From Chrysomallon squamiferum (Eukaryota > Animalia > Mollusca), in contig CM022667.1 in assembly GCA_012295275.1 (NCBI GenBank), positions 682,001 to 746,000 on the forward strand: a DNA stretch of 64,000 nucleotides, given 5' to 3'. A program made the position numbers and the translations under genes. Numbering within the stretch: position 1 is the first letter of the stretch; every line of letters begins with the position of its first letter. Positions 24,664-49,123 of this stretch are shown here, one piece after another. The notes beneath the pieces are model-generated. The model ran no database searches and had not been told where the DNA came from. It saw nothing but the letters and a program-made list of their open reading frames with translations.

Positions 24664-25475
24664 TTACTTTTTGCTTTGTGCAAAGAGAACAGCATTTGGT
24701 GGCAGAGGTGGCAGCTTTCTCTTTGCAGGATCTGCTGGCGGCAGATCTTCAGTCTCTGGAGTCATCACCTCTAAATAGTCTGGAGGTTCTTCTTTAGGTT
24801 CTGTGTAATCCTCATCTTCATCATGTTCTTCACAGCTTTTGCTTTCGGCTGACTTCACTGCATCTGAAACAGTTTCAGACAAATGGTCCTTCGTGTCCAC
24901 GTTCTTGTCTTGTGGGACTTCACGATTGGTTTCTGTGGTGGGGATGATGTCAGACTGATTTACATAGCTAGGAGCAAGCGGTTGAAATGGAACATAGCCA
25001 CAGTCCGATGTCTCAGTCTTATTAGATTCATTCACATAGTCATGTTTTCTTGGATTGTCAGTAAATGATGAGAAGCTCGTCATCTCACAGGTTCTGGGAA
25101 GAAGGTACAAGTCTTTATCAAAGGCCAGATTAACATGTCCACCTTTGCTGCCAATTGGAAGGAGTTGTTTGTCGTCCTTTCTGGCAGTTTCCAGACTGCC
25201 TATGTCATTCTTTGAAACTATTGGATGTAGGTAGTTGTCTGACTCAGCTGATGATGATGCTGTAGTAGTAGTAGTAGTTGTTGTTGTTGTTGTACAGGTG
25301 TCAGAACTGTGGGTTGTTGATGTCGGAACATTCATGGCTTTTTGTGCAGCAGCTATGTCAAGGTTGCATTCTTTTAATCCATGTTTTGACGAGTTTCTTC
25401 CAAATGTTTCCAGATCAGATCTGTGAGTGACGTCATAAGGCAAAACAGTGTCACCAAGATCAGCATATGTATTCT
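24664..25475 (-). CDS. Exon 30: cytoplasmic tail to stop
   Basis: ttcag| ENTYADL... in frame with track ORF 24664..25443, ending FAQSKK then TAA. Confidence 0.85.

Positions 25476-49123: not shown

What the first reader, a model, noticed from the sequence alone, without database searches (positions are those of the whole stretch)
24664..49123. SVEP1-type ectodomain on a transmembrane receptor-like protein
Seen: domain order vWA, ephrin-like, 3 Sushi, 2 HYR, Sushi, 3 ephrin-like, 6 EGF, pentraxin. After the pentraxin come 8 EGF, a ~115-aa module, a hydrophobic helix with a basic stop-transfer sequence, and a ~310-aa tail. Known: vertebrate SVEP1/polydom has this N-terminal order but is secreted and ends in a long Sushi array; Drosophila Uninflatable is transmembrane but has no vWA. 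Inference: this is a membrane-anchored, signalling-capable SVEP1 relative built by exon shuffling (nearly all ectodomain introns are phase 1). It may be an uncharacterised adhesion or pattern-recognition receptor.
Basis: partly seen in the sequence, partly recalled or inferred. Interest (0 to 1): 0.78.

Follow-up and report, generated by a model that had tools for sequence, protein, structure and literature searches.

The report
Membrane-bound sister gene of SVEP1
This mollusc gene is predicted to join the front half of the secreted vessel-shaping protein SVEP1 to a membrane anchor and a likely signalling tail; related genes in other molluscs, a marine worm and lancelets form an old sister branch of SVEP1, so it is likely an ancient cell-surface receptor that databases name only by automatic labels.

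Summary
A 30-exon minus-strand model (49123-24664, 2432 aa) gives the reported domain order, one membrane helix and a ~325-aa tail. The exon-1 break is absent from 3 of 3 RNA runs, so it is most likely an assembly error. The other two breaks are unchecked. The '115-aa module' folds like a SEA domain in an ortholog (Z 12.4). The gene is not a local novelty: 33 database proteins (isoforms included) from molluscs, Owenia and amphioxus share vWA...pentraxin-EGF-TM. On shared ectodomain parts they form one branch (100/100), separate from secreted Sushi-tailed SVEP1, which molluscs also have. This points to a duplication before protostomes and deuterostomes split. The tails keep NPx[YF], Y[AE][ED]L and RxLPPxP motifs, which suggests an adhesion receptor coupled to Src-family kinases. 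That function is inferred, not shown. No description was found in 10 paper searches. Verdict: new variant of a known kind, interest 0.5.

The parts
50098..50332 (-). non-coding upstream exon (3' edge 50098 shown; 5' edge is a guessed acceptor)
   Evidence: loose ends of RNA contigs in 3 of 3 RNA runs match it (compared by eye)
48426..49143 (-). exon 1: ATG 49123, hydrophobic N-terminus (signal peptide by eye), vWA with MIDAS residues DRSAS/T/TDG; frame break near 48697
   Evidence: Pfam VWA on both sides of the break; RNA contigs carry 2 more bases at the break in 3 of 3 RNA runs; MIDAS
47756..47908 (-). exon 2: EGF-like
   Evidence: Pfam EGF_3 4.8e-6; exon 1-2 junction seen in RNA
46176..46331 (-). 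exon 3: ephrin-receptor-like Cys repeat
   Evidence: Pfam PF07699 3.9e-9
43982..45690 (-). exons 4-6: three Sushi domains; one-base frame break in a C run early in exon 4 (not checked with reads)
42642..43745 (-). exons 7-8: two HYR domains
41778..41975 (-). exon 9: Sushi
   Evidence: E 9.5e-4
39650..40987 (-). exons 10-11: middle ferredoxin-fold (SEA-like) module with furin-type RKKR (aa 837) and an acidic Ser/Thr-rich loop; one-base frame break in a G run in exon 10 (not checked with reads)
   Evidence: RxKR/RxRR in 17 of 17 testable TM rows; ortholog model pLDDT 84; best VIA hits GPR126 Z 8.7 and MUC16-type SEA Z 8.2, tied with unrelated folds
37070..38701 (-). exons 12-14: three ephrin-receptor-like repeats
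   Evidence: E about 1e-15 each
33755..36209 (-). exons 15-18: six EGF
31510..33258 (-). exons 19-21: pentraxin / LamG-like domain
   Evidence: ortholog Pfam Pentaxin 1e-20
29070..31112 (-). exons 22-24: eight EGF, with a short Thr-rich linker before the last
27284..28696 (-). exons 25-27: juxtamembrane SEA domain; the GSV[IL]V motif of Owenia and amphioxus is not kept here
   Evidence: ortholog model pLDDT 88.7; top VIA hit SEA, Z 12.4, rmsd 3.1, 112 aligned; Foldseek; alignment
26597..26717 (-). exon 28: transmembrane helix and basic stop-transfer; GC donor needed
24664..26212 (-). exons 29-30 (26118-26212, 24664-25526): cytoplasmic tail with ENTYADL, DNYLHP, PPDY and RKLPPLP near the C-terminus
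   Evidence: tblastn to the ortholog tail E 4e-20

Best explanation
The gene is predicted to encode a single-pass surface protein of an old sister family of SVEP1, and it likely works as an adhesion receptor: its outer vWA and pentraxin parts would grip a matrix or cell-surface partner, and its tail would pass the signal on through Src-type kinases and tyrosine-motif adaptors. Shown by sequence or calls: domain order, one TM helix, transcription and splicing of exon 1, orthologs with the same build, and a separate branch from secreted SVEP1. Inferred: (1) furin cuts the RKKR loop of the middle SEA-like module, as secreted SVEP1 is cut, and the two halves stay clasped through the shared sheet; (2) the intact MIDAS binds an acidic residue of a ligand through Mg/Mn; (3) clustering lets the C-terminal RxLPPxP recruit an SH3 kinase that phosphorylates Y[AE][ED]L and nearby tyrosines for SH2 readers; (4) NPx[YF], kept in most orthologs but degenerate here, binds PTB adaptors or drives uptake; (5) the juxtamembrane SEA is a spacer or shedding point.
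For: Colinear full-length match to ortholog P0013. 33 of 37 vWA + post-pentraxin-EGF proteins have a TM window. The TM group is one side of a 100/100 branch on ectodomain columns only and is sister to secreted SVEP1 at 96/94 with Uif-like outgroups. An AU test rejects amphioxus TM genes grouping with deuterostome SVEP1, p=2e-6. Tail motifs in 18 TM rows: Y[AE][ED]L 15, [RK]xLP[PL]xP 15, NPx[YF] 13, against 0.3, 0.1 and 1.8 expected from shuffles. MIDAS DxSxS in 16 of 17 rows with a vWA; furin-type site in 17 of 17 testable rows. 14 of 19 RNA-versus-window substitutions in exon 1 are synonymous. Cleavage of mouse Polydom into 115 and 270 kD parts (PMC10281526, passages); SEA label and furin site in human SVEP1 (PMC13722417, passages). 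NPxY plus YxxL tails in CED-1/Draper/Megf10 (PMC8092387, passages).
Against: No ligand, phosphorylation, localisation or phenotype data. Motif patterns were chosen after seeing the alignment and the rows are kin and near-copies, so the shuffle counts overstate the case. The window's own protein lacks NPx[YF] (it reads NPEE and NLAF). The second amphioxus paralog P0265 lacks all tail motifs and the MIDAS. PPxY is in only 4 of 18 rows (1.8 expected). There is a single YxxL, not a full ITAM. Two frame breaks (exons 4, 10) and 28 of 29 coding junctions were not seen in reads. The middle module's SEA match is tied with unrelated ferredoxin folds, and Foldseek ranked GPR126 only 23rd. Both fold models are of orthologs, not of this protein. 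Trees used LG+G4 without a mixture model, no cnidarian rows, an assumed root, and carried long-branch warnings.
Confidence: 0.6

Rival explanations
1. It is a membrane-tethered or shed ligand rather than a receptor. The ectodomain acts on other receptors, as secreted SVEP1 does on Tie1 and integrin and as Uninflatable does on Notch, and the tail motifs only control trafficking and turnover.
For: The ectodomain to the pentraxin has the same order as SVEP1, a ligand (PMC10281526 passages). Two SEA-type modules, one with a furin-type site, and GSV[IL]V in the juxtamembrane SEA of Owenia and amphioxus, would allow shedding. One Octopus vulgaris model (P0017) ends right after the SEA with no TM. 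Uif shares the ephrin x3-EGF-LamG block and modulates Notch (bioRxiv 2020.06.15.151027, passage). Yxx-hydrophobic and NPxY motifs also serve endocytosis (own knowledge).
Against: RxLPPxP is a class I SH3-ligand pattern (recalled), not a sorting signal, and is kept in 15 of 18 rows. The tails are 200-830 aa long. The known Tie1 (CCP20) and integrin (CCP21) sites of SVEP1 lie in the Sushi array that this protein lacks.
Confidence: 0.25
2. It is a pattern-recognition or engulfment receptor of haemocytes: the pentraxin or vWA binds microbes or dying cells and the tail drives phagocytosis as in CED-1/Draper.
For: NPx[YF] followed by YxxL in most orthologs mirrors the CED-1 tail (PMC8092387 passages). 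The ortholog's pentraxin is closest by sequence to neuronal pentraxins among solved structures. Hydractinia Polydom was proposed as an immune factor (as cited in PMC12549020).
Against: The window protein reads GQKQG where SVEP1 has GQEQD, so acidic pentraxin residues are not kept (their role in calcium binding is recalled). A conserved, mostly single-copy family (two paralogs only in amphioxus among rows fetched) fits development or adhesion better than immune sensing. No tissue data.
Confidence: 0.12
3. The copy in this genome is a pseudogene, or the model fuses two genes.
For: Three frame breaks in the assembled coding sequence. No read evidence links exon 1 to the TM exon.
Against: The exon-1 break is absent in 3 of 3 RNA runs. 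The other two are one-base shifts in homopolymer runs with ortholog similarity on both sides. No in-frame stops remain, and orthologs span the whole build in single records.
Confidence: 0.03

Closest known systems
SVEP1 / Polydom (vertebrates; Sushi-tailed orthologs in molluscs, chelicerates and other invertebrates)
   Same: Same order from vWA to pentraxin: vWA, ephrin-like, 3 Sushi, 2 HYR, Sushi, SEA-like linker with RxxR (21 of 24 secreted rows), 3 ephrin-like, 6 EGF, pentraxin. Sister branch in the rooted tree.
   Different: After the pentraxin SVEP1 has about 30-48 Sushi and no TM; this family has 6-9 EGF, usually a SEA, a TM and a tail. The Tie1 and integrin sites of SVEP1 lie in the missing array. 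Mizuhopecten and Octopus bimaculoides records include both types.
Uninflatable (Uif) and Uif-like proteins
   Same: Type I membrane proteins sharing the HYR-Sushi-linker-ephrin x3-EGF-LamG/pentraxin block.
   Different: No vWA, 12-14 EGF before the pentraxin, HYR-Sushi-ephrin repeats after it, short tails of 65-115 aa, and no furin loop in the linker of the five rows aligned. They fall outside the SVEP1 + TM pair. The Uif label for these rows is mine, from architecture.
Cnidarian Polydoms (Nematostella NvPolydom1-3, Hydractinia)
   Same: vWA-Sushi-HYR-ephrin-EGF-pentraxin core with a variable C-terminal half (PMC12549020, passages).
   Different: Described with PAN/FA58C, Sushi and CUB ends, found in mesoglea, and with no TM form mentioned in the passages read. 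Not in my trees.
CED-1 / Draper / MEGF10 engulfment receptors
   Same: EGF-rich type I proteins with NPxY and YxxL tail motifs (PMC8092387, passages).
   Different: EMI and NIM-type EGF ectodomain, no vWA or pentraxin. Draper and Megf10 have a full ITAM. The likeness is of motifs only; homology was not tested.
C. elegans MUA-3 / MUP-4 (recalled, not fetched)
   Same: vWA + many EGF + SEA + TM adhesion receptors (own knowledge).
   Different: No Sushi, HYR, ephrin-like or pentraxin domains; different order. Not tested.

Membership tests
SVEP1/Polydom (orthology group) | N-terminal vWA-ephrin-Sushi-HYR-EGF-pentraxin order | tested here: met
SVEP1/Polydom (orthology group) | long Sushi array after the pentraxin | tested here: not met
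   8 EGF + SEA follow the pentraxin, no Sushi
SVEP1/Polydom (orthology group) | secreted, no TM helix | tested here: not met
   TM window at aa 2086; 33 of 37 like-built proteins have one
SVEP1/Polydom (orthology group) | groups inside the SVEP1 clade on shared domains | tested here: not met
   separate branch, 100/100; sister group
SVEP1/Polydom (orthology group) | proteolytic processing in the SEA-like linker | not testable with these tools
   RKKR motif present and conserved; cleavage itself needs protein work
Uninflatable | CUB/FA58C-type N-terminus without vWA; HYR-Sushi-ephrin block after the LamG | tested here: not met
Uninflatable | groups with Uif-like rows | tested here: not met
   (96/94 branch separates them; Drosophila Uif itself not fetched)
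SEA domain (juxtamembrane module) | ferredoxin-like SEA fold | tested here: met
   ortholog model: six best VIA hits are SEA-containing proteins, top Z 12.4; Atlas hits SEA at 0.81, a lead only
SEA domain (juxtamembrane module) | G-S-V-V-V-type self-cleavage motif (recalled) | tested here: not met
   absent in the window protein; GSV[IL]V present in Owenia and amphioxus rows
SEA domain (middle module) | SEA fold | tested here: inconclusive
   beta-alpha-beta-beta-alpha-beta model; SEA hits Z 8.7 and 8.2 tied with unrelated proteins
CED-1/Draper/MEGF10 | EMI + NIM/EGF ectodomain | tested here: not met
   domain order
CED-1/Draper/MEGF10 | NPxY plus YxxL/ITAM tail | tested here: inconclusive
   YADL present, NPx[YF] absent in this protein but in 13 of 18 family rows

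The most novel reading that the evidence does not exclude
The last common ancestor of protostomes and deuterostomes had a receptor twin of SVEP1: the same furin-cut vWA-to-pentraxin head mounted on a membrane with a Src-coupled tail. It is kept in molluscs, annelids and amphioxus and lost in vertebrates, is undescribed, and reads out a ligand for the half of SVEP1 that carries neither its Tie1 nor its integrin site, possibly by pairing with secreted SVEP1 itself.
Probability: 0.3. Interest if true: 0.7.

Novelty: new variant of a known kind. Interest (0 to 1): 0.5.

Why it matters
SVEP1 matters in lymphatic development and coronary disease. Its mapped Tie1 and integrin sites lie in the Sushi tail (PMC10281526), while the conserved front half has no partner in the papers I read. 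A conserved membrane-bound paralog with that same front half and a motif-bearing tail would be a natural reporter for finding what the front half binds. It also shows that automatic 'SVEP1-like' (and 'NOTCH2', 'attractin-like') labels lump two different genes in mollusc and amphioxus data. The limits: the proteins are already in public annotation, the domains are all known, and function is inferred.

Tried and rejected
No whole genome is held, so synteny and a second SVEP1 gene in this organism could not be checked. An automatic exon enumeration was too noisy and was replaced by hand curation. A first model with donor 26593 and acceptor 25566 put the tail out of frame and was rejected for the GC donor 26597 and acceptor 25526; these are not seen in reads. 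Weak alternative acceptors inside exons 4 and 10 could skip the breaks in frame; I judged them less likely because the exon 4 one would drop a Sushi cysteine and ortholog similarity starts upstream of both. DNA run X1 laid no contig, which proves nothing. Exons 4 and 10 and the TM exons were not covered by any read lay. No TM-type protein from vertebrates, arthropods or echinoderms appeared, but three of these are word-seeded, length-limited searches and one search listed only 150 of 699 hits, so loss in those groups is not shown. Two of 125 Sushi-tailed proteins gave a hydrophobic window; both lie far from the C-terminus and the proteins end in EGF-type sequence, so I set them aside as likely model artefacts. 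Alignment A2 held two non-homologous rows and was redone. PDB sequence search gave only generic EGF, Sushi and pentraxin hits. Paper searches that found no description of a TM paralog: and 53 (six accession or locus ids, 0 papers); some searches were for mechanism. PMC6993872 names SVEP1 only in its references. Earlier findings: nothing; the 8 rows concern other matters.

Full report
Observation. The window is AT-rich eukaryotic DNA; no whole genome is held. From the sequence and splice-site listings I built a 30-exon minus-strand model from ATG 49123 to stop 24664, giving 2432 aa. Pfam on 22 single-exon pieces and home-made domain HMMs give: vWA, EGF, ephrin-like, 3 Sushi, 2 HYR, Sushi, a 241-aa gap, 3 ephrin-like, 6 EGF (5 by HMM, one by eye), pentraxin, 8 EGF, a ~110-aa module, one TM helix (aa 2086) with a basic stop-transfer, and a 327-aa tail. 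24 of 27 introns before the TM exon are phase 1.

Frame breaks. The assembled sequence is not open: exons 1, 4 and 10 each shift frame. Nine public runs from 3 studies hold exon 1, three of them RNA. Laying three RNA runs and one DNA run on exon 1 shows two extra bases at the break in 3 of 3 RNA runs; the DNA run laid nothing. The same contigs leave the genome exactly at the exon 1 donor and continue into exon 2, and upstream they continue into an exon ending at 50098, so the gene is transcribed and spliced there. Of 19 substitutions between these contigs and the window, 14 are synonymous. The breaks in exons 4 and 10 are one-base shifts in homopolymer runs with ortholog similarity on both sides. 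I take them as assembly errors too, but this is inference; they were not covered by reads.

Relatives. A search of 1.84 billion representatives with the first 141 aa, cluster look-ups and three word-seeded searches returned full-length relatives. Of 291 fetched proteins of 1200 aa or more, 180 have a pentraxin. 37 have vWA plus at least 5 EGF after the pentraxin, and 33 of those 37 have a TM window; the other 4 end early. These counts include isoforms and near-copies. Named sources include Octopus, Argonauta, Liolophura, Mizuhopecten, Solemya, Lymnaea, Bradybaena, Biomphalaria, Bulinus, Owenia and Branchiostoma. The nearest, P0013 (XP_046552994; abalone by my recall, name cut off in the output), is 53% identical over the first 840 aa and maps colinearly from vWA to tail. 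That is the evidence that vWA and TM exons form one gene. Their database names are automatic: 'SVEP1-like', 'NOTCH2', 'attractin-like', 'uncharacterized'. Molluscs also have a Sushi-tailed, TM-less SVEP1 (architectures), so the TM gene is a paralog and not the mollusc form of SVEP1.

Trees. On ectodomain blocks shared by both types (vWA to fourth Sushi, ephrin x3, pentraxin; 35 rows chosen by me, 1030 columns, LG+G4), 15 TM rows and 20 secreted rows fall on two sides of one 100/100 branch, and each side holds protostomes and deuterostomes. The window protein pairs with P0013 (100/99), next to pulmonate snails with weaker support (88/75), so the host is a mollusc and probably a gastropod. With 7 Uif-like and related rows as outgroup (28 rows, 701 columns), TM (100/99) and secreted (100/100) groups are sisters at 96/94. 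An AU test rejects amphioxus TM genes grouping with deuterostome SVEP1 (p=2e-6). The reading is a duplication before the protostome-deuterostome split. Caveats: no mixture model, long-branch warnings for the amphioxus pair and some outgroup rows, an assumed root, no cnidarian rows, and some tree labels recalled by me. Which C-terminus is older is not resolved.

The unnamed modules. An AlphaFold model of the juxtamembrane module of P0013 (14-row alignment, pLDDT 88.7) matches SEA domains: the six best VIA hits are SEA-containing proteins, top Z 12.4, rmsd 3.1 over 112 residues; Foldseek agrees. My HMM finds it in 11 of 18 TM rows. Five snail rows lack it together with the last EGF, Solemya has a Cys-rich module instead, and one amphioxus paralog was not hit. 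Owenia and amphioxus keep GSV[IL]V, like the self-cleavage motif of mucin SEA domains (recalled); the window protein does not. Its best VIA hits are the GPR126 ectodomain (Z 8.7) and a MUC16-type SEA (Z 8.2), tied with unrelated folds, and Foldseek is not specific. Human SVEP1 has a labelled SEA module and a furin site (PMC13722417, passages), and mouse Polydom is cut into 115 and 270 kD parts (PMC10281526, passages). An R-x-[RK]-R motif lies in this region in 17 of 17 testable TM rows and 21 of 24 secreted rows.

Tail and mechanism. The tails vary from 153 to 828 aa but keep short motifs. In 18 TM rows: Y[AE][ED]L 15, [RK]xLP[PL]xP 15, NPx[YF] 13, acidic-Y[LI]xP 7 and PPxY 4; shuffles give 0.3, 0.1, 1.8, 0.1 and 1.8. 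The patterns were picked after viewing the alignment and the rows are related, so this shows conservation, not function. The window protein has YADL, YLHP, PPDY and RKLPPLP but no NPx[YF]. The vWA MIDAS is intact in 16 of 17 rows. RxLPPxP is the class I SH3-ligand pattern of Src-family kinases (recalled), and NPxY plus YxxL is the layout of the CED-1 tail (PMC8092387, passages). I therefore commit to an adhesion receptor (0.6): a furin-cut but clasped ectodomain, metal-dependent binding at the vWA tip, and clustering read by an SH3 kinase and SH2/PTB adaptors. Rivals are a tethered or shed ligand with a trafficking tail (0.25), an immune or engulfment receptor (0.12), and a pseudogene or fused model (0.03). 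None of the functional steps is shown.

What is known. SVEP1 and cnidarian Polydoms are described as secreted, with Sushi or CUB ends (PMC12549020, passages). Uninflatable has been called a possible SVEP1 ortholog (bioRxiv 2020.06.15.151027, passages); my tree puts this TM family closer to SVEP1 than the Uif-like rows, though Drosophila Uif itself was not fetched. The gene fails membership of SVEP1 proper (no Sushi array, has a TM, separate branch) and of Uif. Seven searches aimed at a description found none; other listed papers were seen as titles and abstract starts only. The library lacks most subscription papers, including Schwarz et al. 2008 on polydom evolution, and supplements were not searched, so prior description is not excluded.

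Verdict. A real, expressed gene of a conserved and apparently undescribed transmembrane sister family of SVEP1. New variant of a known kind; interest 0.5.

Noticed in passing
window 633-11416, + strand: A multi-exon neighbour gene with an RRM exon (Pfam RRM_1); it looks like NCOA5 by my recall, not tested.
   Followed up: partly
window 52100-52600 and 53100-54200: Two CpG-rich stretches upstream of the gene (one search counts 63 and 30 CpG per 2 kb against 5-10 nearby); possible first exon and shared promoter with a + strand gene.
   Followed up: no
window 49143-49132, - strand: A short upstream ATG-to-stop frame (4 codons) lies just before the main ATG in exon 1.
   Followed up: no
window 39650-40183 (exon 11): The furin loop carries an acidic, Ser/Thr-rich insert of about 80 aa; loop length varies from 178 to 460 aa among orthologs.
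   Followed up: partly
window 26316-26589 and 47433-47718: A 66-bp x4 minisatellite in intron 28 and a 145-bp duplication in intron 2, plus many long microsatellites.
   Followed up: no
protein P0190 (Solemya velum), aa 1331-1453: The juxtamembrane SEA is replaced by a Cys-rich module ending CCCxxxxCN, like a Ly6/three-finger domain (recalled pattern).
   Followed up: no
proteins P0265/P0310 and P0122/P0178 (Branchiostoma): Amphioxus has two TM paralogs with near-consecutive accessions on contigs of equal length, probably tandem; P0265 has lost the MIDAS and all tail motifs.
   Followed up: partly
proteins P0268, P0275, P0282: A further group in amphioxus and a brittle star: HYR/Sushi repeats, ephrin-like, 17-21 EGF, pentraxin, no vWA, one with a TM; it groups apart from SVEP1, the TM family and Uif-like rows.
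   Followed up: partly
protein P0017 (Octopus vulgaris): An annotated isoform ends right after the SEA with no TM: a possible soluble form, or a model artefact.
   Followed up: no
window 21124-21441 and 56441-56782, - strand: Open frames that may be exons of other genes; no Pfam hit reached its cut-off.
   Followed up: partly
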